NCBI GenBank assembly: GCA_910585045.1
Contig: CAJUCD010000006.1
Location: 12,580 to 76,579 of the forward strand
Length of the DNA stretch: 64,000 nucleotides
Direction: 5' to 3'
Source: an uncultured Bacilli bacterium
GTDB taxonomy: Bacteria > Bacillota_I > Bacilli_A > RF39 > UBA660
In this document: piece by piece, positions 2,664-22,916 of the stretch
Numbering within the stretch: the stretch's first letter is position 1
How the letters are laid out: the number at the start of each line of letters is the position of its first letter
Translations under genes and position numbers: made by a program
The notes under the pieces: generated by a model
The model's database searches: none
What the model was told of the DNA's origin: nothing
Seen by the model: only the letters and a program-made list of their open reading frames with translations

Positions 2664-2688
2664 CTTAGATATGAGGTTGGTGTATACT

Positions 2689-3435
2689 ATGAAAAAAATT
2701 GGAGGTATCGGGGTAGCCTTAATTGTATTTTTTGCAAGTTTAGGGTTAGCTAAAGCAACTTGTGATACGACAGAAATGAATAGGTTACGGAGTTTAGCAT
2801 CTAATGTTAAAACAAGTTATAAAGAGGTTTTTGAACCAATGGAGGATGGTACTTTTACTCCGCCAGATGGTCTTACTGATGAGATGATAGAAGACTATGT
2901 GGCTTATAGAACTTTGTTTGAGGTTTATATTACAAATCTTACAGAGGATTTATATATAGAAGTAAAAGATACAATTAGTGGTAAAACTACTAAGTATACT
3001 TATAAAGATTCTAATAATGGTACAATAACTATTAAGAATTATAATATAGAGGTTATAAATAAATATACAATAAGTATTTATACAACTAATACAGATTGTT
3101 CTAATTCTAAATTAAGAACGATTGAAACTAAGACACCAAGATTTAATAATTATAGTGCTTTAGATTATTGTCAAAATAATAAAGAATATTATATGTGTCA
3201 TATGTACGTTGATTATGATTTGCCACCTATGGAAGATTTTGTGAAAAAAATTAACAAGTACATAACTGATAAAGAAAAAAAACAACAACAAGAGGAAGAG
3301 GATAAAAAGAATCAAGGATTTATAGAATTTTTAAAAGAGAATAAATCAACTATTATAATTGTGTCATCAGTTATAGTTGTTGCAGGGGTAGGGGCTACCG
3401 TTGTGATTATTAGAAGACGGAGGAGAGTAGTATGA
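2689..3435 (+). CDS. secreted protein with signal peptide and C-terminal TM anchor plus RRRRR tail; first gene of the Tad-like operon
   Basis: N-terminal signal peptide (MKKIGGIGVALIVFFASLGLAKA); C-terminal hydrophobic helix followed by RRRRRVV; no LPXTG; stop overlaps the next start; the ORF-track start at 2671 is replaced by the RBS-supported ATG at 2689. Confidence 0.65.
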   Translation: MKKIGGIGVALIVFFASLGLAKATCDTTEMNRLRSLASNVKTSYKEVFEPMEDGTFTPPDGLTDEMIEDYVAYRTLFEVYITNLTEDLYIEVKDTISGKTTKYTYKDSNNGTITIKNYNIEVINKYTISIYTTNTDCSNSKLRTIETKTPRFNNYSALDYCQNNKEYYMCHMYVDYDLPPMEDFVKKINKYITDKEKKQQQEEEDKKNQGFIEFLKENKSTIIIVSSVIVVAGVGATVVIIRRRRRVV

Positions 3436-6400
3436 AAAGATTACTTAAAAGTTTTGGTTTAATTGTATTATTATTCTGTTTAACATTTTTAGAAGATGTA
3501 AATGCAGCTTCAGTTACAGTTGGAGGTTATACTGCAAATGATCCTTATAGTGGAACAGCAACTACAGGGACTAAATCATCTTCAAAGTATGCTTTGAGTG
3601 GAGTTCCTAGTAAAGCAGTTCTTAATACTCCTGGTGGGGCAAGAAGTAATTTACAATATTATTTGCATAACTTAAATGGTAAAGAAATTTATTGTATGGA
3701 TGCAGCATTAGCTTCAACTAATAAAGGATTATATGCTGGTCGTATTTTGTTTTATGAACAAAATACTTTAGAGAAAGCAGCAATAGATTCATGGACTTAT
3801 ATGTATGATATTTCTTTAATGACTGCTTTGATTAGTGGTGGTTATGCTGATTATTTCCAACATAGTTTGGCTGTTCGTACAGTATCAGCTGCTTGGGGTG
3901 CTTTACAATGGAGTACTAATAGTGATGATAAGATTCAAAATAGCGCAGCTAATAATTATTCACGTGATCAAATGTCAGCTTTTTATGGAACAGCTTATAA
4001 GTGGATACAAGAAGATTCTGAAATTCAAGAATATATTGATACAATAAATAAAGCATTACCTTCTGCAAAGGTTGGCTCTCAGTTATCTGGATATTCTGGT
4101 TATTATTGGACTGGTAATTTGGATGGAGCTAAAGCAGCATTTAAAGCAGCATTAAAAGCTTCAGCTGATCATGCATCTAAATTAGGTGGTAAATCTAATA
4201 TTAAATTTGGTACACCGATTCCAGATAGTAAAGTAGAAGAAACAGAAGATTCTAATGGTACTTTAGTTAAAAAACAAATTGAATTTAAGGCAACAGTTGA
4301 AGAATTTAAACAACAAGATGATAATCCTGCTATTTTTAAAATAGATAGTATAGCATTTGATGGTGGTTATAGTATATATGGAGCTTTAAAAGAGCCTCAA
4401 TTATCTTATGTTTCTATTGCAGGTAATACTATTTGTGAGGGTGCAGAGATTTGTGCAGCTTTTGTAGGACGCAATCTTTTAGAAGGTCTAGATTTACCAG
4501 AAAAGTTTGAAATTGTAATTAAAGTTCAAGTTGAGGGTTATAGTAAAGTTAATAATTCTGGAACTCCAATGTTAAACTGTGGAAAGCAACCTATGCCTTA
4601 TACAATAAAATATAGTTATGGTGGTGGTGGATTTAATTCTACTGGTACTAAGAGTGAGTTAGAAAATAATATTGCAATTGTTTGGCGTAATCAAAGTGAT
4701 GCTAAAGATATGCAAAGATTTGTTAGCTATGAAGGAAAACATACTCCTGATGGTTCTGGAGATGATGAGAATAATGATGAATTAACTCCAGGGGAATTAA
4801 AAGGTGAAGTTAGTTTAGTTGAAGATTGTGATTGTGATGAATTAGCAGAAGCTTGTATAGCTACTAATGATAAAAATAGTGATCCTTGTCAACAATTTTT
4901 CGATGCTGGTTGTGATGAGTGTGATGAATTAGAAGTTTTATGTGAATTAGGTGATCAAGCAGCTTGTGATCAATATGATAAAGAATGTAAAAAAATACCT
5001 GAGGATGCACTTTGCCCAACAGGAAAAACTGAAATTACAGAGTGTTGTGATGAGGCAGGAGACTTATTAATTATTGATGGAACTAATGGTTCAGGTTTGA
5101 TGGATGATCCTTATGAAATTCATGGTAATAAAGTAGAAGATATAAAATTATGTTTTGTCGATTATATAGAGGATAATAAAGATCCGATAGATGAAAAAAA
5201 TAATAAATATCAAATGTTAACTGATGATAGAGTAGTTGGAAATCCTTATTGTAAAGTTAATTGTCGTGAGGATTACGCGATAACATTCCCAACTGCTAAA
5301 AGAGTAAATGCTGGTAGATATTTTACTTTCCAAGCTAAAATGGAATCACATAAACAATGTTTTACAAGTAAAATTGATAGAGAACAGTATATTGAAGATA
5401 TGGTTAATTATTTGAAGGCGATAGAGCAAGCTTATAATACTTATCAAGAATATTATAGAGCATGGGAATTATCTGTTCCAAATCCTTCTATTCAAATTCC
5501 AACTGGATGTCAAAATGGAACTGCAGATACTTGTGCGACTATTACAGATATAGCTATTCCTGTTCAAGATGGTGGATCAGCTGGTGTGTCTGGTAATTAT
5601 ACATATGTTGGTTTGCGTTTTGATATTGATGAAGAACGTGGAGAGTTAAAGTCACCACCAACTCCTGAAAATAGAAATGCAACTCATACATTACATACTA
5701 TTTGGGGACCTGCTACTGTGTGTACAGGACAATCGTGTTATATTGATAAATTTGGAAATAAACATTGTTCTCCATGTGACGTGGCAGTTTATCCAAATTA
5801 TGAAGAAAAAACAGAACAAGATTTTAAAGATGATATGGAAAAGGTTTATACTCAAGCTAAGAGTGATTATGAATCTGCTATTCAAGGATTAAAAGAGGCA
5901 ATTAAAAACTTTAAAGGATGTAGCGAATGGGAGACTGATTATAAACCAGATCCAGAAGTAAAATACGATTATGAAGAAGATTATAGAAGTATGGCTGGAA
6001 TGCCAATTGATATGGATGGTTCATATGATGTTGAAGAAACAACTTATTCTTATTGTAGTCAAGAGTGGACTAATGATGTAACTGTTGATGTAGATAAAAC
6101 TTATGAATCATGTAAGGGTGGTTCAGGATTTAGTAGTGATACAAAGGAATCATTGTTATATATTGAAAGCTGTAGTTTAAATGGTTATAACGGTGGTTGT
6201 GTATCTTATAAAGATAATATGTCAAAAGCAATATTTAAAAAGTCAAATGCTGATGCAGCAGGAGAATATAAGCCACAAAGTATTTTCTGGAATATATATC
6301 CAGATGGAAATATTATTACTAATGGTAATACAAGTAATGGAGTATTACTTGAAGAATCATTGCCAGTAGCTCTTGATACTCGTAAAGGTGTTCATGAATA

Positions 6401-7160
6401 TAATGTTGTTGTTAATAATATTGGTGAATTTTATAAAGATGGAACACAAGGTAGATTTGTAGGAAGTAATGGTATTATTGATACTGAAATCAATTATGTT
6501 TGTTCTTATTTAGTAAATATACCTGATGCTGTTATGACTTGTGATTCAAATGGTTGTGAAGGACCAAATTGTACAAATGATTGTGTTGGACCAAATTGTG
6601 ATGACTTCGAGTGCGAAGGTGAAAATTGTGTTTCTGATTGTGTAAGTTCTGGATGTATGTATGATAAAGATTCAGGTTTAACTTATTATGAAAAAGAAGT
6701 AACTCTTGGTAATTTATTCCCTCAAGGAACAGCTGCTTCAAACTGGGATTCTAGTCAAAGCTCAAAAGCAGCCGCAACAATTAAAGAAATTGAATCTGGT
6801 GATGGAAGTTTAGATAATCCAGGAGGAAATGCTATTTTTGATCAAGAACCAATTTTAAGTATTACATTTACACCATCTATTTCTCAAGCAATTCTAAAAT
6901 ATAATGAAGATGCTGAGAGTGATGGTGGGTATTCTAATAAAACAGTTTATTGTAAAGATGTTGGTGGATATGAAAAAGTTGGATGTTACAGCGAATTTAT
7001 GGATGATTTCATAGATGGTAATATTAATGGTGTAAGTACTGCTGATTCTATTAATTCTAAAAGTTTAATTGGAAAAGATAGATCTTATCGAAGTAGTGTT
7101 GATAAATATTTCCAATTATGGGGTGCTATTAGTGATAAAATAGGCCCATCTTGGAAATAA
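3432..7160 (+). CDS. giant (1242 aa) secreted cysteine-rich acidic protein; candidate substrate, adhesin or tip protein of the Tad-like system
   Basis: Signal peptide ...EDVNA/AS; more than 60 Cys in clustered CxC, CDxC and CxGPNC modules (e.g. DCDCDELAEAC..., CDSNGCEGPNCTNDCVGPNCDDFECEGENC); no TM or anchor; GGAGGAG RBS; 4-nt overlap with the upstream gene. Confidence 0.85.
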   Translation: MKRLLKSFGLIVLLFCLTFLEDVNAASVTVGGYTANDPYSGTATTGTKSSSKYALSGVPSKAVLNTPGGARSNLQYYLHNLNGKEIYCMDAALASTNKGLYAGRILFYEQNTLEKAAIDSWTYMYDISLMTALISGGYADYFQHSLAVRTVSAAWGALQWSTNSDDKIQNSAANNYSRDQMSAFYGTAYKWIQEDSEIQEYIDTINKALPSAKVGSQLSGYSGYYWTGNLDGAKAAFKAALKASADHASKLGGKSNIKFGTPIPDSKVEETEDSNGTLVKKQIEFKATVEEFKQQDDNPAIFKIDSIAFDGGYSIYGALKEPQLSYVSIAGNTICEGAEICAAFVGRNLLEGLDLPEKFEIVIKVQVEGYSKVNNSGTPMLNCGKQPMPYTIKYSYGGGGFNSTGTKSELENNIAIVWRNQSDAKDMQRFVSYEGKHTPDGSGDDENNDELTPGELKGEVSLVEDCDCDELAEACIATNDKNSDPCQQFFDAGCDECDELEVLCELGDQAACDQYDKECKKIPEDALCPTGKTEITECCDEAGDLLIIDGTNGSGLMDDPYEIHGNKVEDIKLCFVDYIEDNKDPIDEKNNKYQMLTDDRVVGNPYCKVNCREDYAITFPTAKRVNAGRYFTFQAKMESHKQCFTSKIDREQYIEDMVNYLKAIEQAYNTYQEYYRAWELSVPNPSIQIPTGCQNGTADTCATITDIAIPVQDGGSAGVSGNYTYVGLRFDIDEERGELKSPPTPENRNATHTLHTIWGPATVCTGQSCYIDKFGNKHCSPCDVAVYPNYEEKTEQDFKDDMEKVYTQAKSDYESAIQGLKEAIKNFKGCSEWETDYKPDPEVKYDYEEDYRSMAGMPIDMDGSYDVEETTYSYCSQEWTNDVTVDVDKTYESCKGGSGFSSDTKESLLYIESCSLNGYNGGCVSYKDNMSKAIFKKSNADAAGEYKPQSIFWNIYPDGNIITNGNTSNGVLLEESLPVALDTRKGVHEYNVVVNNIGEFYKDGTQGRFVGSNGIIDTEINYVCSYLVNIPDAVMTCDSNGCEGPNCTNDCVGPNCDDFECEGENCVSDCVSSGCMYDKDSGLTYYEKEVTLGNLFPQGTAASNWDSSQSSKAAATIKEIESGDGSLDNPGGNAIFDQEPILSITFTPSISQAILKYNEDAESDGGYSNKTVYCKDVGGYEKVGCYSEFMDDFIDGNINGVSTADSINSKSLIGKDRSYRSSVDKYFQLWGAISDKIGPSWK

Positions 7161-7176: not shown

Positions 7177-8625
7177 ATGAATACTTCTTATTGGGGGTAT
7201 TGGTTAGTTGCAATGGGTGTTGCTATTGTTGGACTGATGATTTCAGTACAAGGTATTACAACTAATACAGCTCAAAATTATTATGGTTTAAAAGAGGTGG
7301 TAGATGCATCTATGTTAGAGGCTATAGATGCAGCCTACTATCGTGATTATAATGAAGTTAAAATTGATAAAGAAAAATTTATGGAAGTTTTAATTAGAAA
7401 ATTGCCAACTTTTATAGGAGTAAATGAAACATATGAGCTTAATTTTTATGCTTTATATGAAGCTCCGCCTAAAGTTAGTGTAGAGATTAAAACTCATAGT
7501 GGAACTAGTTTTGTAAGTTCTAAAGATTATGATACTGTTACAAGAGTTAGTGCAGTATTACAAGTATTTAATAAAATTGATAGTGTTGGTATAGCGGATG
7601 GTGGAAGTGGTAGTTCTGGTAGTGGCGGAACTACTTCTAAACCAAGCAATGGTTCTACTAGTAATGGTAATGGTACCAATAATGGAACTGTAAATAAACC
7701 TGATACTCCTGTTGGAGGGGAAACATCTGGAAGTGGCGATGATGAAACATGTAAGTCTGGTATAACTTCTAATGAATTAAGCGGAATGCATGGAACTGCA
7801 ATGGTTGCTAAAGCTATTTATGAAAAAGCGGATTTTAAAGAAACTAGTAGAAGTGCTACACCAGGTGTTAAATTTGATATTTTAGGTGAAAATGGAAATA
7901 ATTGGGCTATTCAATATGATGGCAAATGTGGCTGGGTAGATAGCAATTATATGGCTATTAATATGGCTGAGTATATACCTAATGTTGAATTTAATATTAC
8001 TAATGCTTCGTCAAGTATTTATAAGTCTTCTGAAAAGAATATTCCTGGTTTGACAGGACAAAAACTTTATAGTAGCGAATATACTAATAGTTGGGTTCCA
8101 GGTACATTTAGTTTTGCAAAGAAATTAAAAGTAGCAGCAGCTAATGCAAAAGCAGCTGGAGATACAATTGTTGTAAATGATGCTTATAGACCAACTTCAG
8201 TTTCAAGTTTTGCTAATCAAAAATTAAAAGCATTATATAATAGTGATTCTGTTGTTCGTGAGAATATAGAGTTTAGTGTTGGTGAAAGCCTTAAGAAGCA
8301 TTCTTGGGGAATCAGCTGGTTTTTAGCTCAAAATTTATCTACACATAATACTGGTTGTGCAGTTGATGCATCTTTAAAGGGAAAAGCAATGCCTACAGCT
8401 ATGCATGAGCTTAGTACAAAAGCGATAAAATATTGGGGTCCTAGTACTTCTCATGAATCAAAAAATTATTCTGTCGGAATGAAGAATAATGTTCATGCTC
8501 AAGATTTAAGTAGATATATGATGAGTGCAGGTCTTACAGATTTAGCTTCAGAATGGTGGCATTATCAAGATAGTGCTTGTCATTCAAAGATTGGTAGTGG
8601 AGCTAATTTCTGGAGTGCAGTGTAG
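7177..8625 (+). CDS. membrane-anchored peptidoglycan hydrolase: N-terminal TM, G/S/T/N-rich linker, SH3b-like domain and M15 (VanY-like D-Ala-D-Ala carboxypeptidase) domain
   Basis: N-terminal TM helix; low-complexity GGSGSSGSGGTTSKPSNGSTSNGNGTNNG; SH3b-like GVKFDIL...WAIQYDGKCGWVDSNYM; M15 signature S-x-H-x-x-G-x-A-V-D (STHNTGCAVDASL); GGAAGGAG RBS. Confidence 0.75.
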   Translation: MNTSYWGYWLVAMGVAIVGLMISVQGITTNTAQNYYGLKEVVDASMLEAIDAAYYRDYNEVKIDKEKFMEVLIRKLPTFIGVNETYELNFYALYEAPPKVSVEIKTHSGTSFVSSKDYDTVTRVSAVLQVFNKIDSVGIADGGSGSSGSGGTTSKPSNGSTSNGNGTNNGTVNKPDTPVGGETSGSGDDETCKSGITSNELSGMHGTAMVAKAIYEKADFKETSRSATPGVKFDILGENGNNWAIQYDGKCGWVDSNYMAINMAEYIPNVEFNITNASSSIYKSSEKNIPGLTGQKLYSSEYTNSWVPGTFSFAKKLKVAAANAKAAGDTIVVNDAYRPTSVSSFANQKLKALYNSDSVVRENIEFSVGESLKKHSWGISWFLAQNLSTHNTGCAVDASLKGKAMPTAMHELSTKAIKYWGPSTSHESKNYSVGMKNNVHAQDLSRYMMSAGLTDLASEWWHYQDSACHSKIGSGANFWSAV

Positions 8626-8637
8626 AAGGAGGATAAA

Positions 8638-9450
8638 ATGGGAAATATAGTAACGACTTTTAAAAGATTCTTGTCAAATAAGAATACTGTTACAATAATT
8701 GGTGTAATGCTAGGAATAGTAGTACTTTATGTTGGTTATAACTATAGAGTTAATCATGCTATTGAGACAGTTTCAATTCCTTATGCTAAACAGTCAATTA
8801 AATCAACAGAGCAGATTACTCAGGATTTAATTGGTACAACTGAGGTTCTTAGATCTCTAGTTACAAGTAATAAAAATTTATTATCTCGTACTAATCAGGT
8901 GATAAATTCAACTGCACCTTTTTGTGTAAATGTTGGAACTAGTGTACCACAAGGAGCTTTCTTTTATAATGAGCAAGTTCTACCTTGTAAAGGTATAAAT
9001 AGTAATGCTTTAAAGGATATGCCAGATGGTTATAAAGCAGTTGCTCTTAATGTAGATCTTCAATCAACTTATGGTAATTCAATGTACCCTGGAGATTATA
9101 TTGATTTATATGTAAAAATGACAAGTGATGAAGGTAAAATTATATATGGTGAATTTATAACAAAATTACCAATTTTGGATGTACGTGACAGTAATGCTAA
9201 AAGTTTATTTTACGGATCATCTGTTAGTGGAACTCCAGCATTATTATTGTTTGCAGTTCCTCAAGAATTATATTTATTAATTAGTAAAGCTAATTATGTA
9301 GGTAGTGTAGAGTTGGTTCCAGTTCCTGGTAATGCATCTTATACTAGCGCACCAGGTGAAACAGCAGTTAAAAGCGAGTATTTAAGAAATCAAATTCTTG
9401 ATTATACTCAAGATATTCCTGATGAAGTTATACCTGATAGTGTTTCATAA
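8638..9450 (+). CDS. CpaB/RcpC-like pilus-assembly protein (N-terminal TM plus SAF-like domain)
   Basis: Single N-terminal TM; region VSIPYAKQSIKSTEQITQDLIGTTEV resembles the CpaB SAF-domain start; sits immediately upstream of the CpaF-family ATPase. Confidence 0.45.
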   Translation: MGNIVTTFKRFLSNKNTVTIIGVMLGIVVLYVGYNYRVNHAIETVSIPYAKQSIKSTEQITQDLIGTTEVLRSLVTSNKNLLSRTNQVINSTAPFCVNVGTSVPQGAFFYNEQVLPCKGINSNALKDMPDGYKAVALNVDLQSTYGNSMYPGDYIDLYVKMTSDEGKIIYGEFITKLPILDVRDSNAKSLFYGSSVSGTPALLLFAVPQELYLLISKANYVGSVELVPVPGNASYTSAPGETAVKSEYLRNQILDYTQDIPDEVIPDSVS

Positions 9451-9484: not shown

Positions 9485-10579
9485 ATGAATGATGCAATAT
9501 TTTCGCAGATTGATTTTGGACCTTTAAAGGAATTTATAGATATTGATGATATTACAGATATCTCATATTCTAATGGTGGACAATTGTGGCTTAAATCTTT
9601 AACTAAAGGAGTTTATAGAGTTGAAAGACCAGAAATAAATAATCCACTGATAGAAAAGCTAGCGTTCCAATGTTCAAATGTAATGGGAAAAACATTCAAT
9701 ATGGCACACCCTTTTTTAGATGCTGAAAGTACAGAATTACGTCTTAACTTTGTTCACGATTCGATAGCTACTAATGGAGTAGCACTAGTTATTCGTAAAA
9801 CGCCAGCGAAGATTCGTCTTAATAAGGAAAAATTACTAAATGAAGAATATGTTAGAGCGGATTTATTAGATTTTCTACTTAATTGTGTACAGGGTCATGC
9901 TAATATAATTGTTAGTGGGGAAACTGGTTCTGGTAAAACAGAGCTTGTTAAGTATCTTGCTAGTACTACTAAAGAAAATGAAAAAATAATAACTATAGAA
10001 GATACTTTGGAGTTGCACTTAGATAGAATATTTCCACATCGAGATATTGTAGCGATGAAAACAAATAATATTGCTTCTTATTCGGATGTTTTAGTTACAT
10101 GTATGAGACAGAATCCAATTTGGATATTATTATCAGAGGTTCGTAGTGCTGAGGCAGTAATGGCAGTACGTAACTCAATATCTTCAGGACATCATATTAT
10201 TTCGACAATCCATTCAGATAAAGCAGCATTAATTCCAATGCGTATGTATAGTTTGATAGAGTCTAACATTGATGTTGAACAGTTTGTTACTACTATACAT
10301 AGATATGTACAAATTGGAATATATGTAAAAGGCTATATGAGTGAGAAATTAGGAAGATTTCAACGTGAAATAATGGAAATTTGTGAATTTTATGTTGATG
10401 ATGATAATAAACCGCAAGTTAATACAATATTTCAAAAAACTTTGGATGGGAAATATACTTTAAATAATCCTACAAAACATCTTAGAAGCTATTTAGCAAT
10501 TCAAGGTGTTATCTTACCAGATGATTTATTTCATATAGAAAGTAGTAATATTGGTTCTGAGATGATAGAGTCTTTGTAG
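9485..10579 (+). CDS. CpaF/TadA-family (VirB11-like) secretion ATPase
   Basis: Walker A GETGSGKTE, Walker B/Asp box WILLSEVRSAEA, His box GHHIISTIHSD; 364 aa; GGGAGG RBS. Confidence 0.85.
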   Translation: MNDAIFSQIDFGPLKEFIDIDDITDISYSNGGQLWLKSLTKGVYRVERPEINNPLIEKLAFQCSNVMGKTFNMAHPFLDAESTELRLNFVHDSIATNGVALVIRKTPAKIRLNKEKLLNEEYVRADLLDFLLNCVQGHANIIVSGETGSGKTELVKYLASTTKENEKIITIEDTLELHLDRIFPHRDIVAMKTNNIASYSDVLVTCMRQNPIWILLSEVRSAEAVMAVRNSISSGHHIISTIHSDKAALIPMRMYSLIESNIDVEQFVTTIHRYVQIGIYVKGYMSEKLGRFQREIMEICEFYVDDDNKPQVNTIFQKTLDGKYTLNNPTKHLRSYLAIQGVILPDDLFHIESSNIGSEMIESL

Positions 10580-10592
10580 AGGGAGGATTTGA

Positions 10593-11489
10593 ATGGAATT
10601 AGTTATTTTAATGGCAATAGCGTTATTTGTAATTATATATCGCAGAAATGATGGTAGTGAATCCTTTTATACTTTTATGAAATCTCAGTTTGGAATTGTA
10701 TATCAGAAATATGCTCCTTATAGTTTTCAGACTATAAGTGCAAAAATGAAAGAATTAAAACAAGAATATACAATGAAAGACTATATGATTCAAATTGTGG
10801 TATTAGGTGGTTTAGCTGGTGGTATAGCATATTTATATTTTTATAGTTTAATAATGGTTGCTGCGTATGGTGGAGTTGCAATAGCATTGATTCCATATTT
10901 GGCTTGGTTAAGAAGTAAAAGGCTTTATAGTGAGTATATATTTGAGCAAATTCAAGTTTATACAACTAATGTTATTATGGAATTTAATACAACACAAAGT
11001 TTTGTTAAATCATTAGAAGGTGTTAGAGATTCTGGTATTGTTGAAGATCCTGTTTTGGAAGATATAAAAATGATGATTAATATGTCTTATCAAAATGGTA
11101 CTATAGATGAATCTATTGAGTATTTTAATCAAAAATATCCATATTATATGGTTAAAAATATGCATCAATTGTTTTTACAAATTACCAAAGAAGGTGCTAA
11201 AGATTCTGGTGAAGCTTTAGAAAATATGAGTATGGATATAGACTCTTTAGTTGAAGGCGTTTATAGGGACCAAATGGACCGTAAACAATTTCATACTAAA
11301 TTTATAACATTTGCTTTGGTTTTATTTTTGTTAGTTTTAGTTATGCAAGTTTTATTAGGGAAAGATAGTTATTTAAAGCTTTTAGATATGTGGTATGTTC
11401 ATATAATATTACATGCTATAATTTTTATTAATTGCTTTTTCTTACTCTCAGGTGAAAAATATTATAATGATGATGTGGGGGTAGAATAA
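10593..11489 (+). CDS. TadB-like inner-membrane platform protein (T2SS-F-like)
   Basis: N-terminal TM, ~150-aa cytoplasmic domain, C-terminal TM helices; position directly after the ATPase; GAGGGAGG RBS. Confidence 0.55.
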   Translation: MELVILMAIALFVIIYRRNDGSESFYTFMKSQFGIVYQKYAPYSFQTISAKMKELKQEYTMKDYMIQIVVLGGLAGGIAYLYFYSLIMVAAYGGVAIALIPYLAWLRSKRLYSEYIFEQIQVYTTNVIMEFNTTQSFVKSLEGVRDSGIVEDPVLEDIKMMINMSYQNGTIDESIEYFNQKYPYYMVKNMHQLFLQITKEGAKDSGEALENMSMDIDSLVEGVYRDQMDRKQFHTKFITFALVLFLLVLVMQVLLGKDSYLKLLDMWYVHIILHAIIFINCFFLLSGEKYYNDDVGVE

Positions 11490-12277
11490 TGCAAATAGAG
11501 ATAGCTATTATAGCTGCGATTATTTTTTATATATTAACTAAAAGTGGTAAAATTAGTATAAGTAAATTAATTGCAGATAATGAAATGTATTTAAGAAAAT
11601 TAAAAGAATCTGATTATGATTTTTATGTAAGAGCAAAATATGGTGATTCAGTTAATCCAGATATTTTATTTAATAAGAGATTACAAAATGCTTTTATTAT
11701 TATAGCTTTGACGTTTTGTTTGCTTTTGAATAATATGTCATATGTTTATGCTTTAGTTTGTTTAATAGTAGGTTTTTTGTTCTTTAAATTAGATTATATG
11801 AATTTAAAAAGCTATTATAAAAAACATTTAAATGATATTGATACTATGCTTCCATATTATTTAAAAGGTTTAGAAATTTTAATTCAACATTATACGGTGC
11901 CAGTAGCTATTGGTAAATCAATGGAGGATGCTCCTGAGATTTTTAGAGATGGTTTAAAAAATTTAATTAATGAGATTAATGCTGGTAATGATACAATTGA
12001 ACCTTATATGGAGTTTGCAAGACAATACCCAGTTCGTGATTCAATGAGAATGATGCGTTTGTTATATCGTCTTAGTTTAGGAAGACAGGAGAGAAAGCAA
12101 GAGCAATTATTGGCTTTTTCAAAAACAATTTCTAATTTACAGCAAAAAGCAAGAGAAACTAAATATAAAAACCGTTTGGATAAAATGGAAGGTAAGACAA
12201 TGAGCATGCTTATTACTACTGGATTAGGAGTTATGGTACTTTTGATATTAGCAGTAATAATGTTAATGGGAATTTAG
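11489..12277 (+). CDS. TadC-like inner-membrane platform protein (T2SS-F-like)
   Basis: Same TM / cytoplasmic domain / TM architecture; start overlaps the previous stop (ATGA). Confidence 0.55.
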   Translation: MQIEIAIIAAIIFYILTKSGKISISKLIADNEMYLRKLKESDYDFYVRAKYGDSVNPDILFNKRLQNAFIIIALTFCLLLNNMSYVYALVCLIVGFLFFKLDYMNLKSYYKKHLNDIDTMLPYYLKGLEILIQHYTVPVAIGKSMEDAPEIFRDGLKNLINEINAGNDTIEPYMEFARQYPVRDSMRMMRLLYRLSLGRQERKQEQLLAFSKTISNLQQKARETKYKNRLDKMEGKTMSMLITTGLGVMVLLILAVIMLMGI

Positions 12278-12358
12278 TTTACATTTAATGTGTTAATGAC
12301 TTGACATTTAATATTAGTTAAGATAGAATTATATTATATAGGAAAGCGAGGAAAGTGT

Positions 12359-12790
12359 ATGTTAATAATGGCAGCGCCTAAGGTGTGTTCTGATTTACAA
12401 GAAGTATGGCAAATTGTGGGATGGATATTATGGGTTTTTAAAATTGTAATTCCAATTATAATTATTATATTTGGTATGATAGATTTAGGAAAAGCTGTAG
12501 TTGCTAGTAAAGATGATGAAATAAAGAAATCTATTAAATCATTAGCTATGAGAGCAGTTGCAGGTGTAATAATATTCTTTATTCCAGCTTTAGTTGCAGC
12601 TATCTTTGGTATGGTGGATAGTTTCCAAGAAGTTGAAGGAGAATATGCTGTTTGTGAATTATGTATTAAGAATCCTGGTAAATGCGGTAGCAATGCTGGA
12701 TCTGGTAATAATGATCGTGGAACTAAGGAGTCTTGTACTAGTGCTGGCGGAGTTTGGGATAGTAAAACAAATACTTGCCAAGGCATTTAA
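12359..12790 (+). CDS. small two-helix membrane protein with cysteine-rich C-terminal tail; candidate pilin/major subunit (VirB2/TrbC-like topology, not Flp-like)
   Basis: Two hydrophobic helices (IVGWILWVFKIVIPIIIIIFGMI and AVAGVIIFFIPALVAAIFGMV) separated by a charged loop; tail CELCIKNPGKCGS...CTSAGGVWDSKTNTC; last gene before the operon terminator. Confidence 0.5.
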   Translation: MLIMAAPKVCSDLQEVWQIVGWILWVFKIVIPIIIIIFGMIDLGKAVVASKDDEIKKSIKSLAMRAVAGVIIFFIPALVAAIFGMVDSFQEVEGEYAVCELCIKNPGKCGSNAGSGNNDRGTKESCTSAGGVWDSKTNTCQGI

Positions 12791-19418: not shown

Positions 19419-19973
19419 ATGCCAGTTTGGTTAATTGTAATTTTAGCAATTATAGTTGTAATTATTTTATGGGTAATAGCTACTTATAATTCACTAATAT
19501 CGCTAAAAAATAGAGTTAAGGATGCATGGAGTCAAATTGATGTTCAACTAAAAAGAAGATTTGATTTAATTCCTAATTTAGTAGAGACTATTAAAGGATA
19601 TACTAAGCATGAAAGTGAAACTTTAGAAAATGTTGTTAAAGCAAGAAATACTTATTTATCTGCAACATTACCTGAGGATCAAATGAAGGCTGATGGGGAA
19701 CTTACACAAGCGATTAATAAATTATTTGCACTTACTGAGTCTTATCCAGATTTAAAAGCTAATACTAATTTTACAGATTTACAAGAACAACTTAAAGAGA
19801 CAGAAAATAAAATTGCTATGTCAAGACAGTTTTATAATGACATTGTAATGCAATATAATAACAAAGTTGAGATGGTGCCATCTAATATTGTAGCAAGCAT
19901 TTTCAAATTTCAAAAACAAGCATTTTTTGAAGCTGTAGAATCTGAAAGAGAAAATGTAAAAGTTAAATTTTAA
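19419..19973 (+). CDS. lemA: LemA family membrane protein
   Basis: N-terminal TM and the family-wide block [41 protein letters not shown]. Confidence 0.85.
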
Positions 19974-20000
19974 GACTTACCATTGTAAGTCTTTTTTTGA
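19972..20000 (+). terminator. rho-independent terminator
   Basis: aagacttac-catt-gtaagtctt hairpin followed by TTTTTTT. Confidence 0.6.
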
Positions 20001-20009
20001 AGGTGAGAT

Positions 20010-21896
20010 ATGAAAAAGTTTATTGTAGGAGTATTATTATTTTTAGTAAGTCCTTTTATGGTGGAGGCAGCTGATTATGATATTACTGATTTTGCTGTTA
20101 GAGCGTATATTCAAGATAATGGAGATTTATTAGTTAATGAAATTATAATTCTGGATGGTAGCTTTAATGGGTATGAAAGAGATTTGGATTTTAAGCCTGT
20201 TTTAAGTGATAGATATGAGTCTTCTAATTTTTATCAAGGCAGTGGTATAGATGATTTAACTATTAAAGGAAAATATGTTTCAAAATATAGTGATGATTTA
20301 TTTTTAGATGAAGATTATAATACTTTTGTGGAAGTATCAAATGCCAGTAATGGTGATAAAGCTAAATATGTAAAAAGTAGTTTAAGTTCGGGTTATAGAA
20401 TGAGAATGTATTATAAAGCTAGTAAACAAAAAGTTGCTTTTTATATTAAATATACAATTAGTAATTTAGTAGTTAAACATAATGATGTAGCAGAATTATA
20501 TTATCCTTTTATTGGTGATGCTTTTGAAGATAAAATCAAAAATGTAGATATTAAAGTTTATTTGCCTGATAATGATGAATCATCTTTTCATAGAGTATGG
20601 GCTCATGGGTCTTTAGCAGGTGAAGTAGAAAAAATTAATAATGAAGGTTTGCATGCTTATGCATCAAATATAAACCAAGGCGAAGTATTAGATGTTAGAA
20701 TGACTTTTGATGCTAAATTAGTACCTTATTGTAGTAAAAAAAGTAATCAAGTTTATTTTGATAAAATTATAGATATAGAGACTAAAAGGGCAAATGATGC
20801 TAATCAATTAAGAGAAGAATTGCTTATTAAATATAATATTTATAAGTATGGAACAATTATATTTTATGTGTTGGTTGTAGGATTATGGATTTATACTTAT
20901 TATAAATATGGTAAAAGCCCTAAATCTTTATATTACGCAAAATATAATAGGGAATTTATTGATGATTATAATGTGGAGGTAATAGATTATTTAATGAATA
21001 AAAAAATTACTCCTAATGCAATGAGTGCTTCTATTATGAATTTGATTTATAAGAAAAATATTAGTGTTCAAGAATTGCCAGATTTGAAAAAAAATAAAGA
21101 TTATGAATTTACTTTAGAAAATATGGATAATATTAATGAAAGTGAAAAGATATTAATTGAGTTTTTGTTTGATAAAGTTGGTAAAGGTAAATTAAATAAT
21201 GAAAAGAAAATATTTACTACAAAAGATTTAAAAAAATATGCTGATGGAACAAAAACATGTAATACTTTTATATCAAGTTATACAAAATGGAAAAATAATA
21301 TCATGAGTGTAGCAATGAGAGAGAATTTTTATGAGAAAAGTTTTGTACCTATATTTTTTGGTGTTTTTGTTTTAATATTAGGAGTATTATTATTTATATT
21401 TGGGGTAAATAATGGTTCTGATTTTGTGCCAGGATATTTTATACCAATTGTTTGTATTATTTTTATGTTTTACACTATCTTAGTTGATAAAAAAACTATT
21501 AAAGGAGCAGAACATTATGATAAATGGAAAGCTTTTAAAAATTTCTTAAATGATTTTGGAGCATTTGATTTAAAAGAATTACCTGAAATAGTATTGTGGG
21601 AAAAATATTTAGTATATGCGATAATTTTTGGTTTAGCAAAAACTGTTCAAAAAAGTATGAATGTTAAAATTAAAGAACTTGATATGACAAGTGTAGATTA
21701 TTATCCTTCTTATTTTTACATAGATTTGGGTGGGTCTATTAGTTATTCTATAAATAATGCAATTAGCACTGCATATAGTAGACAGGCGGCTAATTATTCT
21801 AATAGTCACTCTAGTTCATCATCAGGTGGGGGATTTGGTGGTGGCTTCTCTGGTGGCTCTGGATTTTCTGGAGGCGGTGGAGGTCGCGGATTTTAA
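20010..21896 (+). CDS. DUF2207-type membrane protein (usual LemA partner), Gly-rich C-terminus
   Basis: Signal peptide, large extracellular domain, two internal TM segments, GGGFGGGFSGGSGFSGGGGGRGF tail; conserved pairing with lemA. Confidence 0.65.
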   Translation: MKKFIVGVLLFLVSPFMVEAADYDITDFAVRAYIQDNGDLLVNEIIILDGSFNGYERDLDFKPVLSDRYESSNFYQGSGIDDLTIKGKYVSKYSDDLFLDEDYNTFVEVSNASNGDKAKYVKSSLSSGYRMRMYYKASKQKVAFYIKYTISNLVVKHNDVAELYYPFIGDAFEDKIKNVDIKVYLPDNDESSFHRVWAHGSLAGEVEKINNEGLHAYASNINQGEVLDVRMTFDAKLVPYCSKKSNQVYFDKIIDIETKRANDANQLREELLIKYNIYKYGTIIFYVLVVGLWIYTYYKYGKSPKSLYYAKYNREFIDDYNVEVIDYLMNKKITPNAMSASIMNLIYKKNISVQELPDLKKNKDYEFTLENMDNINESEKILIEFLFDKVGKGKLNNEKKIFTTKDLKKYADGTKTCNTFISSYTKWKNNIMSVAMRENFYEKSFVPIFFGVFVLILGVLLFIFGVNNGSDFVPGYFIPIVCIIFMFYTILVDKKTIKGAEHYDKWKAFKNFLNDFGAFDLKELPEIVLWEKYLVYAIIFGLAKTVQKSMNVKIKELDMTSVDYYPSYFYIDLGGSISYSINNAISTAYSRQAANYSNSHSSSSSGGGFGGGFSGGSGFSGGGGGRGF

Positions 21897-21918: not shown

Positions 21919-22866
21919 TTAGTTTTCACTAATGGTTTTTAATTCGCTATAAATAGCTCTATTAAATTCATGTTCTTTACTTGTTATATTGCTATCAGCT
22001 AATATTAATTCTTCAGTATTTATAAGAAAATATTTATGATATAAATAATCTTTGCCATCACTACTTACAGGATCATCCCAAGTTAAGTCTAAATGAAGCC
22101 ATTCATTATTTATTTTAACAGCATTCCAAACATGGCCAGCTGGTTCTTTTATGTTTTCATTGGTAGTGGCTATTTTAAAATTATCATAGCCCATATTAGT
22201 TAAGAATATAGCCATTAAATCAGTATAGCCATTACATGTTGCTAAATGATTAAATAAAGTTCCATAAGCACTATAACTCTTAGTTTCTTTATTGTTATTA
22301 ATATCATATTTAGTATTATTTATGATATAATCGTGTATAACTTTTATTTTGTCATAATCATCAGTTAAATCACTTGTTATCATTGAAGAAATAATTTTAT
22401 TTACTTCTTCATTTATTTTAGTTATTTCTTCTTGTTCATATAAATATTTTATTTTTAATGTTACTTCACCAGAATCAGAAATGGTTGTATTTATACTTGT
22501 AAAAGAATTGAAAGGATGAACATAATTATTTAAATGAGTTAAAAGATTGGCATCACTACTAATGTCATTTATATCTTTAAGACAGTTTTTATATTCTTTA
22601 GGGCAATAAAAAGTAAATATATCAGTACCACTATTAATTATAGTATAAATAATATTTAAGTGTTCTTGTTTACTATAAGGTGTAAAATTATTAGTATTAG
22701 ATACAAAAGTATAATTATTATTTTTGTAATATGCATTGTAAGCTTCTATATTATTAATATTAGGATGATTTATAAAAGCAATAATTTTGTCTGTGATGGG
22801 ATCAACATTTAATAAAATTGTTAAAATAGTCATTATACAAAGCATAGGAATAAATAGTTTTTTCAT
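21919..22866 (-). CDS. secreted transglutaminase-like cysteine protease domain protein
   Basis: Signal peptide; Cys-His-Asp core (ATCNGYTDLMA ... AGHVWNAV ... LDLTWDD); AAGGTGAG RBS. Confidence 0.6.
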   Translation of the reverse strand: MKKLFIPMLCIMTILTILLNVDPITDKIIAFINHPNINNIEAYNAYYKNNNYTFVSNTNNFTPYSKQEHLNIIYTIINSGTDIFTFYCPKEYKNCLKDINDISSDANLLTHLNNYVHPFNSFTSINTTISDSGEVTLKIKYLYEQEEITKINEEVNKIISSMITSDLTDDYDKIKVIHDYIINNTKYDINNNKETKSYSAYGTLFNHLATCNGYTDLMAIFLTNMGYDNFKIATTNENIKEPAGHVWNAVKINNEWLHLDLTWDDPVSSDGKDYLYHKYFLINTEELILADSNITSKEHEFNRAIYSELKTISEN

Positions 22867-22916
22867 ATTCTCACCTTTATAAGTATAGCAAAAAAAAAAG
22901 AAGTTCACAATAAATG

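What the first reader, a model, noticed from the sequence alone, without database searches (positions are those of the whole stretch)
3432..7160. 1242-aa secreted protein with more than 60 cysteines in acidic CxC/CDxC/CxGPNC modules
Extracellular proteins of Gram-positive bacteria usually avoid cysteine. This one has dense modules such as DCDCDELAEACIATNDKNSDPCQQFFDAGCDECDELEVLCELGDQAACDQYDKECKK and CDSNGCEGPNCTNDCVGPNCDDFECEGENCVSDCVSSGC. That suggests disulfide- or metal-knotted mini-domains. It has a signal peptide but no anchor, and it sits between an anchored protein and the PG hydrolase in the Tad-like operon. That position suits a secreted substrate, filament tip or adhesin. It could be a new exoprotein class.
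Basis: seen in the sequence. Interest (0 to 1): 0.7.

Follow-up and report, generated by a model that had tools for sequence, protein, structure and literature searches.

The report
Disulfide-rich thioester-domain adhesin, gut Bacilli
The cysteine-rich giant protein is a previously unannotated relative of the "thioester" adhesins that Gram-positive bacteria use to bond covalently to a target; here it has a disulfide-stapled body of unknown fold, and its gene is the fast-evolving member of a very conserved pilus- or secretion-like operon in uncultured gut bacteria.

Summary
The ORF is real: 3432-7160, 1242 aa, with a signal peptide and no anchor. Both quoted modules are present, but it has 44 cysteines, not more than 60.

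It belongs to an unannotated family of 338 cluster representatives, found in uncultured gut Bacilli MAGs. No Pfam, NCBIfam, PHROG or PDB sequence hit was found.

In 118 of 129 mature homologues the cysteine count is odd (p=9e-24). This fits all cysteines being disulfide-paired except C88.

Residues 541-1242 model confidently (pLDDT 83.9) but match no PDB fold. The CxxxxC ladder itself is not modelled confidently.

The operon is syntenic in 49 MAG loci and collinear with the front of the pLS20 conjugation operon, whose TED adhesin TIEpLS20 is needed for mating: TED adhesin, DUF5411, VirB11/TadA-like ATPase, two membrane proteins, T4SS_pilin. VirB4, VirD4 and a relaxase are absent.

The ATPase is 91-94% identical in most loci. 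The Cys-rich protein is only 25-40% identical.

Verdict: a new variant of a known kind, a covalent adhesin. "Tad-like" and "new class" are only partly supported.

The parts
2671..3435 (+). Partner gene 'up254': signal peptide, about 190-aa extracellular domain with 4 conserved Cys, C-terminal TM helix and RRRRR tail. Its stop overlaps the start of the Cys-rich gene.
   Evidence: Translation. Always immediately upstream of the Cys-rich gene wherever that flank is present on the contig. Duplicated together with it in L012, L020 and L054, and in L053 with a CpaB-like gene between the cassettes. Only 21-46% identical between species. Conservation profile. No Pfam, NCBIfam or PHROG hit.
3432..7160 (+). 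The 1242-aa Cys-rich secreted protein (whole ORF including stop).
   Evidence: Family of 338 cluster representatives.
3432..3506 (+). Sec signal peptide (residues 1-25, cleavage after VNA).
   Evidence: It is the only hydrophobic stretch. Conserved in all homologues.
3507..4766 (+). Thioester-domain (TED) head with class-II-like layout, residues 26-445: beta-barrel lobe, enlarged helical lobe, beta-sandwich. Proposed bond-forming residues are C88 (nt 3693-3695, motif YCMD) and Q428 (nt 4713-4715, motif MQRFV). R149 is invariant.
3549..3869 (+). Within-species variable patch (codons 40-146) in the TED lobe around C88.
   Evidence: 24 of the 25-31 nucleotide differences to six conspecific contigs fall here. 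Flanking genes differ at 0-3 substitutions.
4824..5066 (+). Acidic Cys-rich helical module (residues 465-545; residues 460-545 hold 12 Cys and 26 D/E against 5 K/R). It is built of C-x6-8-C helix staples and its length varies between homologues.
   Evidence: Sequence. Modelled as four helices of 8-11 residues plus a short one, with block pLDDT 91-97 over model residues 431-490, falling to 56-76 after residue 490. Expanded by repeats in P0003, P0004, P0006 and P0011. Its Cys are 60-80% conserved, or lineage-specific.
5067..6530 (+). Conserved body (residues 546-1033): beta core carrying the family signature CxVxC[KR]EDY...NAGRYFTF, a long two-helix hairpin (about 650-679 and 795-831) with a variable Cys-paired beta insert (661-800), then a large beta region.
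6540..6656 (+). CxxxxC 'ladder' (residues 1037-1075): nine Cys at 3-4-residue spacing, with CxGPNC units.
   Evidence: Eight of the nine Cys are 88-99% conserved. With C1024 the modal count is 10. Not confidently modelled: pLDDT is below 50 for residues 1035-1089.
6699..7157 (+). C-terminal alpha/beta domain (residues 1090-1242) with the conserved C1174/C1185 pair. It ends in the conserved terminal pentapeptide GPSWK (nt 7143-7157).
   Evidence: The Cys count of this region is even in 128 of 129 homologues.
7177..8625 (+). DUF5411 protein (N-terminal TM plus about 110 aa), here fused to a Gly/Ser linker and a Peptidase_M15 (VanX/VanY-type) cell-wall hydrolase domain.
   Evidence: Pfam DUF5411 at 7e-43 and Peptidase_M15 at 6e-10. 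Most orthologues are DUF5411-only, about 135 aa. pLS20 gene 36 also matches DUF5411 (E 1.4e-5).
8638..9450 (+). CpaB/RcpC-like membrane-anchored protein (sub-threshold match).
   Evidence: Pfam RcpC at 22.5 bits against a cut-off of 28.8. TIGR03177 at 28 bits against a cut-off of 71.
9485..10579 (+). Secretion/pilus ATPase of the VirB11/TadA(CpaF)/FlaI group.
   Evidence: Pfam T2SSE at 6e-27. PDB sequence hits: CpaF at 61 bits, with FlaI and VirB11 close behind. 33% identity over 308 aa (E 1e-40) to the pLS20 'tadA'/gene 37 product. 91-94% identical in 42 of the 46 MAG loci that carry it and 72-79% in the other four.
10593..12277 (+). Two polytopic membrane proteins (298 and 262 aa; 10593-11489 and 11489-12277), in the positions held by pLS20 genes 38 and 39.
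   Evidence: No T2SSF, Pfam or PDB similarity. Their family HMMs pick pLS20 p38 (E 0.02) and p39 (E 1.8e-4) as top hits among 237 pLS20 ORFs. 78-91% identical in most MAG loci and 63-71% in the divergent ones.
12359..12790 (+). 143-aa two-TM protein of the T4SS_pilin (VirB2-like) family, with a Cys-containing extracellular tail.
   Evidence: PF18895 at E 0.011 for the window copy. All 14 of 14 orthologues match, best E 7.4e-6. pLS20 gene 45 is a PF18895 member at 32 bits.

Best explanation
The protein is a Sec-exported covalent adhesin.

1. Head. Its N-terminal about 420 residues form a thioester domain (TED) with a class-II-like layout. Inferred: Cys88 and Gln428 form an internal thioester that reacts with an amine on a target surface (host glycoprotein, food particle or another cell) and leaves a covalent amide bond.

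2. Body. The rest of the protein takes the place of the usual isopeptide-bonded CnaB stalk and LPXTG anchor of TED adhesins. It consists of an acidic, length-variable module of disulfide-stapled helices, a conserved 700-residue part of unknown fold, a CxxxxC ladder, and a C-terminal domain ending in GPSWK. The parity data imply that all other cysteines are disulfide-paired.

3. Context. The gene and its upstream membrane-anchored partner form a fast-evolving, sometimes duplicated cassette. The cassette heads a very conserved chromosomal operon: DUF5411 (+/- M15 wall hydrolase), a CpaB-like protein, a VirB11/TadA-type ATPase, two membrane proteins and a VirB2-type pilin. This operon is the free-standing counterpart of the front module of pLS20-family conjugation operons, where the TED adhesin TIEpLS20 mediates mating-pair formation.

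4. Display (inferred). The conserved C-terminal body holds the adhesin on the cell or on a filament built by this machine, possibly through the partner protein. The variable TED head points outward.
For: Shown:
- The family is real and large.
- C88 is invariant in 129 of 129 sequences. Q428 and R149 are invariant in 68 of 68.
[quoted passage not shown] TIEpLS20 has YCID and YQRLM.
- The Gln sits in a strand after the beta-sandwich, as in class II TEDs.
- The family HMM's best hit among 237 pLS20 ORFs is TIEpLS20, aligned on the Cys motif.
- 118 of 129 mature homologues have an odd Cys count (p 8.6e-24). Members whose only Cys in the head is C88 are still odd overall, so C88 is the unpaired one.
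- The operon is syntenic in 49 loci. It is collinear with pLS20 genes 34-45: TED, DUF5411, ATPase (33% identity, E 1e-40), p38/p39 as top hits, and T4SS_pilin.
- TIEpLS20 is a sortase-independent TED adhesin required for conjugation in liquid (PMC8092201).
- The head evolves faster than the body (identities). The within-species differences cluster around C88.
Against: - Sequence models of TEDs do not detect the family. Pfam TED_2 reaches only E 0.094, in 1 of 37 members. A family profile finds no PDB TED. hhalign against TIEpLS20 gives only a weak local hit (probability 3.5%).
- The third TED motif, TQxxPhiW, is replaced by A-[IV]-R.
The bond itself is therefore inferred.
- The Cys-to-Gln spacing is 340 residues, against about 170-205 in solved class II TEDs.
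- Nothing shows experimentally that the protein is displayed by, or depends on, the neighbouring machine.
- The target ligand is unknown.
- No thiol-disulfide oxidoreductase was seen in the window (a crude motif scan only).
Confidence: 0.6

Rival explanations
1. The protein has a TED-like fold but no thioester. C88 would be a free or catalytic thiol (for example a protease- or transglutaminase-like nucleophile), or a redox or metal ligand. Binding, if any, would be non-covalent.
For: The third TED motif is not conserved: Arg149 replaces the Gln. TED HMMs do not match. The Cys-Gln spacing is unusually long. The bond could not be checked in the model.
Against: Cys and Gln are the only universally conserved TED residues (PMC6194298), and exactly these two are invariant here, in matching motifs. 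There is no invariant His or Asp triad typical of Cys hydrolases; the invariants are C88, R149, Q428 and C528. Odd parity shows a single unpaired Cys.
Confidence: 0.15
2. The protein is a secreted toxin or effector, for example a pore-former. It would be exported or delivered with the help of the ATPase machine, and the upstream membrane protein would act as a cognate immunity or protection factor.
For: The pair evolves fast and is duplicated as a cassette. The C-terminal body is beta-rich with a helical hairpin. The best Foldseek hit is perforin-2 (E 4.7e-3, but probability only 0.06), and other beta-pore-formers appear among the insignificant hits.
Against: No structural match is significant. 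The pattern of variability is the reverse of polymorphic toxins: the head is variable and the C-terminal body conserved. The partner gene lies upstream and has a large extracellular domain. The head is an adhesin fold.
Confidence: 0.1
3. The Cys modules, especially the CxxxxC ladder, are metal-binding clusters (metallothionein- or zinc-ribbon-like) rather than disulfide knots.
For: The ladder is 23% Cys, with D, E, N and G between the cysteines. AF2 cannot model it, with pLDDT below 50. The organism is an anaerobe of a reducing habitat, and no Dsb-like gene is seen in the window.
Against: The family-wide odd total parity, and the even parity of self-contained regions (124 of 129 and 128 of 129), fit pairwise bonding. 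Cys presence co-varies in pairs: 914/923 r 0.97, 1051/1056 r 0.82, 494/497 r 0.86. C1024 plus the ladder most often gives 10 Cys.
Confidence: 0.1
4. The protein is a structural envelope, S-layer or spore-surface protein unrelated to adhesion. Cys-rich exosporium and coat proteins exist in spore-formers, and the window carries gpr and spoIIP.
For: Sporulation genes lie nearby. The Cys content is high.
Against: A Sec signal peptide and conserved operon membership with an ATPase and a pilin. A TED head. No S-layer, SLH or coat-protein domains.
Confidence: 0.05

Closest known systems
[quoted passage not shown]
   Same: Both have a signal peptide and an N-terminal TED with a YC[ILM]D Cys motif and a QR[FL] Gln motif. 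Neither has an LPXTG or sortase signal. Both are encoded just upstream of a DUF5411 protein, a VirB11/TadA-like ATPase (33% identity), two membrane proteins and a T4SS_pilin gene.
   Different: - TIEpLS20 has 767 aa, one Cys in the TED, Cna-type stalk domains, is plasmid-borne and is part of a full conjugation operon (VirB4, VirD4, relaxase).
- The window protein has 1242 aa, 43 mature Cys, and a disulfide-stapled body of unknown fold. It is chromosomal at a fixed locus between asnS/dcuC and addAB, with no conjugation genes. Pfam TED models do not detect it.
- There is no tblastn match in the plasmid collection.
Sortase-anchored TIE proteins with class II TEDs (BaTIE 6FWV, SaTIE 6FX6, EfmTIE86 6FWY) and class I TEDs (Cpa 2XI9, SfbI 5A0L, CpTIE 5A0G)
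   Different: There are no isopeptide or ester stalk domains and no LPXTG. The helical lobe and sandwich are larger (340 residues between Cys and Gln). The TQxxPhiW motif is replaced. Stabilisation is apparently by about 21 disulfides rather than isopeptide bonds.
DUF5411-marked CpaF/PilC-type operons predicted in Roseburia, Ruminococcus and Eubacterium (PMC9523054)
   Same: These are operons of 8-9 genes in gut Firmicutes that combine a CpaF-type ATPase, a DUF5411 protein and an adhesin- or invasin-like protein.
   Different: Those operons were reported with a recognisable PilC/GspF platform and an internalin-like protein. Here the membrane proteins show no T2SSF signal, the surface protein is a TED, and the hosts are uncultured Bacilli MAGs. 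Homology between the two sets was not tested.
Tad/Flp pili (CpaF/TadA, TadB/C, CpaB/RcpC, Flp, TadV)
   Same: The ATPase belongs to the same broad clade (CpaF is the best PDB sequence hit, 61 bits). There is a sub-threshold CpaB/RcpC match. Two mid-sized membrane proteins follow the ATPase.
   Different: There is no Flp pilin and no prepilin peptidase in the operon. The pilin-like gene is VirB2/T4SS_pilin type. TadB/C homology is not detectable.
Twin-CX9C (CHCH) helical hairpins (recalled from memory, not tested)
   Same: Short helices with Cys at both ends, at regular C-x6-9-C spacing, which suggests disulfide-stapled helix pairs. This resembles the acidic module as modelled.
   Different: CHCH proteins are small mitochondrial intermembrane-space proteins.

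Membership tests
Thioester-domain (TED/TIE) adhesins | Bond-forming Cys in a [YFL]C-Phi-zeta motif, universally conserved | tested here: met
   Y87-C88-M-D, family consensus YCLD. C88 is invariant in 129 of 129 sequences. Motif definition from PMC6194298.
Thioester-domain (TED/TIE) adhesins | [quoted passage not shown] | tested here: met
   M-Q428-R-F-V. It is the only invariant Gln (68 of 68). It lies next to strand 405-411 of the model, after the sandwich. TIEpLS20 has Y-Q-R-L-M.
Thioester-domain (TED/TIE) adhesins | TED fold (beta-barrel lobe plus helical bundle; class II adds a beta-sandwich) | tested here: met
Thioester-domain (TED/TIE) adhesins | TQxxPhiW motif on helix alpha2 | tested here: not met
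   The family has A-[IV]-R149-A... with an invariant Arg. PMC6194298 states that the Gln and Trp of this motif are not essential for bond formation.
Thioester-domain (TED/TIE) adhesins | Match to Pfam TED (PF08341) or TED_2 (PF20610) | tested here: not met
   No hit for the window protein. One of 37 homologues hits TED_2, at E 0.094. TIEpLS20 itself passes (28.8 bits).
Thioester-domain (TED/TIE) adhesins | An actual Cys-Gln thioester (17-Da mass deficit; side chains at bonding distance) | not testable with these tools
Indirect support: exactly one unpaired Cys per protein, by parity.
Thioester-domain (TED/TIE) adhesins | Typical architecture: CnaB, isopeptide or ester stalk domains plus an LPXTG sorting signal | tested here: not met
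   No such domains and no LPXTG or C-terminal TM. This architecture is not strictly defining: TIEpLS20 also lacks a sorting signal.
pLS20-family conjugation operon, front module (genes 34-45) | Gene order: TED adhesin, DUF5411 small protein, VirB11-like ATPase, two membrane proteins, T4SS_pilin | tested here: met
   ATPase: 33% identity, E 1e-40. DUF5411 on both sides. p38 and p39 are the top hits of the two membrane-protein HMMs (E 0.02 and 1.8e-4, in a database of 237 ORFs). PF18895 matches both pilin-like proteins.
Conjugative type IV secretion system | VirB4 and VirD4 ATPases, VirB6/VirB8-like channel proteins, relaxase | tested here: not met
   None lie in the operon or its flanks, which are asnS and dcuC upstream and a DUF1307 gene and addB/addA downstream. 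No ORF in the window has the right size or domains. The locus is at the same chromosomal position in nearly all loci whose flanks are covered.
Tad/Flp (type IVc) pilus system | TadA/CpaF-type ATPase | tested here: inconclusive
   T2SSE domain. CpaF (61 bits), FlaI and VirB11 score about equally. NCBIfam VirB11 and TadA models both fall below their cut-offs.
Tad/Flp (type IVc) pilus system | TadB/TadC platform proteins (T2SSF domain) | tested here: not met
   No T2SSF hit even at E<=5. Profiles of 13 orthologues find nothing relevant in PDB sequences.
Tad/Flp (type IVc) pilus system | Flp-type prepilin and a TadV prepilin peptidase | tested here: not met
   No such ORF lies between 2671 and 13900. 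The only pilin-like gene is of T4SS_pilin type. The rest of the genome was not available.
Metal-binding Cys clusters (metallothionein-like) | Cys used as metal ligands rather than in pairs | tested here: inconclusive
   Parity and pairwise co-variation favour disulfides. The ladder itself is unmodelled and metal content cannot be tested.

The most novel reading that the evidence does not exclude
The operon would be a free-standing Gram-positive apparatus built from a VirB2-type pilin, a VirB11-type ATPase, two novel platform proteins and a DUF5411 or wall-hydrolase component. It would assemble a filament or conduit and display an exchangeable, covalently bonding TED adhesin held on by its conserved disulfide-rich body and its membrane partner. 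pLS20-family plasmids would carry the same module for mating-pair formation. That would mean Gram-positive T4SS-type 'pili' exist, with the TED protein acting as their VirB5-like tip adhesin.
Probability: 0.2. Interest if true: 0.85.

Novelty: new variant of a known kind. Interest (0 to 1): 0.6.

Why it matters
- It adds a large family (338 clusters at 50% identity), invisible to HMM searches, to the covalent thioester adhesins. The family is found in abundant but uncultured gut Bacilli, where adhesion mechanisms are unknown.
- It shows an alternative way to build such an adhesin. About 21 disulfides and a body of unknown fold replace the isopeptide-bonded Ig stalk and sortase anchor. The odd-Cys-count rule gives a simple, checkable signature.
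- It ties the adhesin to a module (DUF5411, VirB11-like ATPase, two membrane proteins, T4SS_pilin) whose function in pLS20-family conjugation is still listed as unknown. A chromosomal version with no DNA-transfer genes suggests the module is an autonomous adhesion or display device. That makes its role testable in B. subtilis/pLS20.
- The contrast between the highly conserved machine (ATPase 91-94% identical where AsnRS is about 65%) and the variable adhesin cassette (25-40%) points to selection on target specificity or on immune or phage exposure.

Tried and rejected
- Word-index homologue searches with the whole protein and with the 129-sequence alignment returned only the self-cluster and one spurious hit. 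A third search with the TIEpLS20 TED found nothing, so no TED profile could be built for hhalign.
- The exhaustive HMMER search was what revealed the family.
- Pfam, NCBIfam, PHROGs and PDB sequence searches of the protein and of 37 homologues found no domain.
- tblastn against the plasmid and phage collections found no match, so the family is not an obvious mobile-element gene.
- The afdb50 fold library was unavailable.
- Self-BLAST found no internal sequence repeats.
- The Tad assignment of the two membrane proteins could not be supported.
- The tm143 family HMM did not pick pLS20 p45 directly. The link rests on both proteins matching PF18895.
- A crude CxxC scan of the window found no secreted thioredoxin-like protein. 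This says little about the rest of the genome.
- The spore-coat and S-layer readings were rejected, because of the Sec signal, the operon context and the absence of relevant domains.

Full report
**1. The observation**

ORF 3432..7160 (+) is one uninterrupted 1242-codon reading frame. It begins with a typical Sec signal peptide (MKRLLKSFGLIVLLFCLTFLEDVNA|AS). This is the only hydrophobic stretch in the protein, and there is no LPXTG-like motif or C-terminal membrane helix.

Both quoted peptide strings are present exactly, at residues 465-521 and 1037-1075. The cysteine count is wrong, however: there are 44 Cys (43 after signal-peptide removal), not more than 60.

The enrichment is nevertheless real. 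Cysteine is 3.5% here against 1.27% across 55 ORFs of >=150 aa found in all six frames of the window (binomial p = 5e-9). The window has 26% G+C and the flanks are ordinary chromosomal genes: asnS, a DcuC-type carrier, addB/addA, lemA, gpr, spoIIP and murG.

**2. A real, large, unannotated family**

No Pfam, NCBIfam, PHROG or PDB sequence match exists for the protein. The word-indexed search found only its own 90% cluster: 40 members on 35 contigs, all metagenomic.

The exhaustive HMMER search of 1.84 billion cluster representatives found 338 proteins at E<=1e-3, of which 71 are at E<=1e-30. Most are 950-1480 aa. All of those inspected start with a signal peptide, and the median is 41 Cys in 132 full-length hits. 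None of the ten clusters looked up carries a name in any source.

A scan of one genome per species returned 49 loci. All are from uncultured MAGs, and those whose sample names indicate a source are animal- or human-associated (rabbit, chicken, Hadza, rumen). They are labelled Bacilli, Tenericutes or 'Mycoplasma sp. CAG:776', with a few evidently mislabelled bins. There is no relative in the plasmid or phage collections. The ORF is therefore neither an artefact nor an orphan.

**3. Anatomy from conservation**

Alignment of 129 members shows these features:
- An N-terminal region with invariant C88 (YCMD; consensus YCLD), invariant R149 (A-[IV]-R-A) and invariant Q428 (QRF).
- An acidic Cys-rich module (residues 465-545) whose length varies. 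It is expanded by repeats in P0003, P0004, P0006 and P0011.
- A well-conserved body carrying the signature CxVxC[KR]EDY...NAGRYFTF, with invariant Cys at 574, 611, 643 and 1024.
- The CxxxxC ladder, in which eight of the nine Cys are 88-99% conserved.
- A C-terminal domain with a conserved Cys pair (1174/1185), ending in the terminal pentapeptide GPSWK.

The N-terminal 520 residues are much more divergent between homologues (down to 12-19% identity) than the C-terminal 700 (25-48%).

**4. The head is a thioester domain**

[quoted passage not shown] In class II TEDs a beta-sandwich is inserted before the Gln-bearing strand.

The family has YC[LM]D and [x]QRF[IV]. Exactly these two residues are invariant, and Q428 sits next to a strand that follows the modelled beta-sandwich.

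The third motif, TQxxPhiW, is not kept, but the same paper says it is dispensable. Sequence-level support is weak:
- Pfam TED models do not match.
- A family profile finds no PDB TED.
- hhalign against TIEpLS20 gives only a local alignment, though it falls precisely on the Cys motif.
- The family HMM does pick TIEpLS20 as its best hit among 237 pLS20 ORFs (E 1e-3), aligning YCLDP on YCIDP with high posterior probability.
- TIEpLS20's Gln motif is YQRLM.

I could not measure the Cys-Gln distance, because model coordinates are not exposed. The bond itself is therefore inferred.

**5. The cysteines are paired, except one**

In 118 of 129 family members the mature protein has an odd number of cysteines, although totals range from the 20s to 75 (two-sided binomial p = 8.6e-24).

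Self-contained regions are even: residues 661-800 in 124 of 129 members, and 1091-1242 in 128 of 129. Cys presence co-varies in pairs: 914/923 r 0.97, 494/497 r 0.86, 1051/1056 r 0.82.

Three members have C88 as the only cysteine in the entire head and are still odd overall. The simplest reading is that every cysteine is in a disulfide except C88.

The acidic module is modelled as four helices of 8-11 residues plus a short one, with block pLDDT 91-97 over model residues 431-490, falling to 56-76 after residue 490. Cys lie at C-x6-8-C spacing, which suggests disulfide-stapled helices forming an extensible spacer. The ladder is not confidently modelled: pLDDT is below 50 for residues 1035-1089. 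With C1024 it most often contains 10 Cys, but a metal-binding role cannot be excluded.

**6. The body has no known fold**

The model of residues 541-1242 (pLDDT 83.9, pTM 0.67) shows:
- a beta core;
- a long two-helix hairpin carrying a variable, Cys-paired beta insert;
- a large beta region;
- the ladder;
- a C-terminal alpha/beta domain.

**7. Context**

Across the 49 loci the gene order is fixed:
- up254
- the Cys-rich protein
- DUF5411 (+/- Peptidase_M15)
- a CpaB-like protein
- the ATPase
- two membrane proteins
- a 2-TM protein

The operon usually lies between asnS/dcuC and addB.

Identity to the window proteins is strikingly uneven:

| Protein | Identity to the window protein |
|---|---|
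| ATPase | 91-94% in 42 of 46 loci; 72-79% in the other four |
| Two membrane proteins | 78-91% in most loci; 63-71% in the divergent ones |
| AsnRS | about 65% |
| AddB | about 54% |
| Cys-rich protein | 25-40% |
| up254 | 21-46% |

The up254 + Cys-rich pair is duplicated in four loci: L012, L020, L053 and L054.

Within the species of the window, six independent contigs are identical or nearly so in the flanking genes (0-3 substitutions, apart from a few small indels) but differ at 25-31 positions in this gene. Of these, 24 lie in codons 40-146, the TED lobe around C88. This is a localised recombination or variation patch; overall dN/dS is about 0.17.

**8. What the machine is**

The ATPase has a T2SSE domain. 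Its PDB sequence neighbours are CpaF, FlaI and VirB11, at similar scores. The CpaB/RcpC match is sub-threshold. The two membrane proteins show no T2SSF signal, even as profiles. The last gene belongs to PF18895 T4SS_pilin: all 14 of 14 orthologues match, best E 7.4e-6. There is no Flp pilin or prepilin peptidase in the operon.

The closest characterised arrangement is the start of the pLS20 conjugation operon:
- gene 34, the TED adhesin TIEpLS20;
- gene 36, which matches DUF5411 (E 1.4e-5);
- gene 37, a VirB11-like ATPase, 33% identical to the window ATPase over 308 aa (E 1e-40);
- genes 38 and 39, two membrane proteins, which are the top hits of the window families' HMMs (E 0.02 and 1.8e-4);
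- gene 45, a PF18895 pilin.

TIEpLS20 is a sortase-independent class II TED adhesin. Its Cys is essential for conjugation in liquid medium (PMC8092201). Genes 36-45 are listed as of unknown function (PMC8557374).

The window operon lacks VirB4, VirD4, VirB6/8 and a relaxase, and it sits at a fixed chromosomal site. It is therefore not a conjugation system but a free-standing version of this module. DUF5411-marked CpaF-type operons with adhesin-like genes have also been predicted in gut Clostridia (PMC9523054).

**9. Mechanism proposed**

- Shown: export signal; TED fold and motifs; one unpaired Cys; operon linkage and its relation to pLS20.
- Inferred: C88 and Q428 form a thioester that captures an amine on a target. 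The disulfide-stapled helices and ladder act as a mechanically stable spacer in place of isopeptide domains. The conserved C-terminal body, perhaps with up254 (which co-varies and co-duplicates with it), retains the protein on the cell or on a filament made by the ATPase/pilin machine. The M15 domain fused to DUF5411 in some species opens the wall locally.
- Unknown: the ligand; whether a filament exists; how disulfides are formed in an anaerobe.

**10. Verdict**

The finding is a genuine and interesting protein, but it is not a wholly new class. It is a deeply divergent, architecturally new variant of the thioester-domain adhesins, attached to a module so far known only from pLS20-type plasmids. 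It was wrong on the Cys count and imprecise on 'Tad-like'.

Noticed in passing
window 9485-12277, compared with L007-L055: The ATPase (91-94% identical in 42 of 46 loci) and the two membrane proteins (78-91% in most loci) are far more conserved between species than housekeeping genes on the same contigs (AsnRS about 65%, AddB about 54%). This means either unusually strong constraint or recent spread of the machine genes.
   Followed up: partly
L012:3767-13381, L020:4591-13759, L053:2500-11731, L054:6750-15230: In four species the up254 + Cys-rich gene pair is present twice. Three are in tandem; in L053 a CpaB-like gene lies between the cassettes. The copies are divergent, so the pair behaves as a duplicable cassette.
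   Followed up: partly
window 3549-3869 (codons 40-146 of the ORF): Against six conspecific metagenome contigs, 24 of the 25-31 nucleotide differences in the 3.7-kb gene cluster in this 320-bp stretch around C88. Neighbouring genes are essentially identical. This looks like a recombination patch in the TED lobe.
   Followed up: yes
window 7177-8625 versus orthologues in L009-L017 and others: The Peptidase_M15 (plus Gly/Ser linker) part is fused to DUF5411 in only about a quarter of the species. Elsewhere the gene encodes DUF5411 alone (about 135 aa), as in pLS20 gene 36.
   Followed up: partly
window 30727-31935 (-): A second T2SSE-family ATPase with CPKC/CKHC motifs (PilB/ComGA-like). The operon ATPase HMM hits it only at E 2e-14. 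It probably belongs to a separate competence or type IV pilus system.
   Followed up: partly
window 12334-12786 (-): A 150-aa ORF on the opposite strand almost completely overlaps the conserved T4SS_pilin-like gene. It is probably a spurious shadow ORF.
   Followed up: no
L003:6179-6754 and L003:12862-13955: On one conspecific contig, up254 and the ATPase are interrupted by 1-2-base indels (gene calls of 191 aa, and of 77 + 302 aa). This is either assembly error or pseudogenisation in that strain.
   Followed up: no
L001:3569-5194 (-), about 5 kb upstream of the operon (outside the window): A large (541-aa) sortase-domain protein lies upstream of asnS in conspecific contigs, although neither the Cys-rich protein nor up254 has an LPXTG motif.
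   Followed up: no
window 19419-21896: A LemA + DUF2207 membrane-protein pair lies next to a transglutaminase-like protein on the opposite strand (21919-22908). It appears unrelated to the finding.
   Followed up: no
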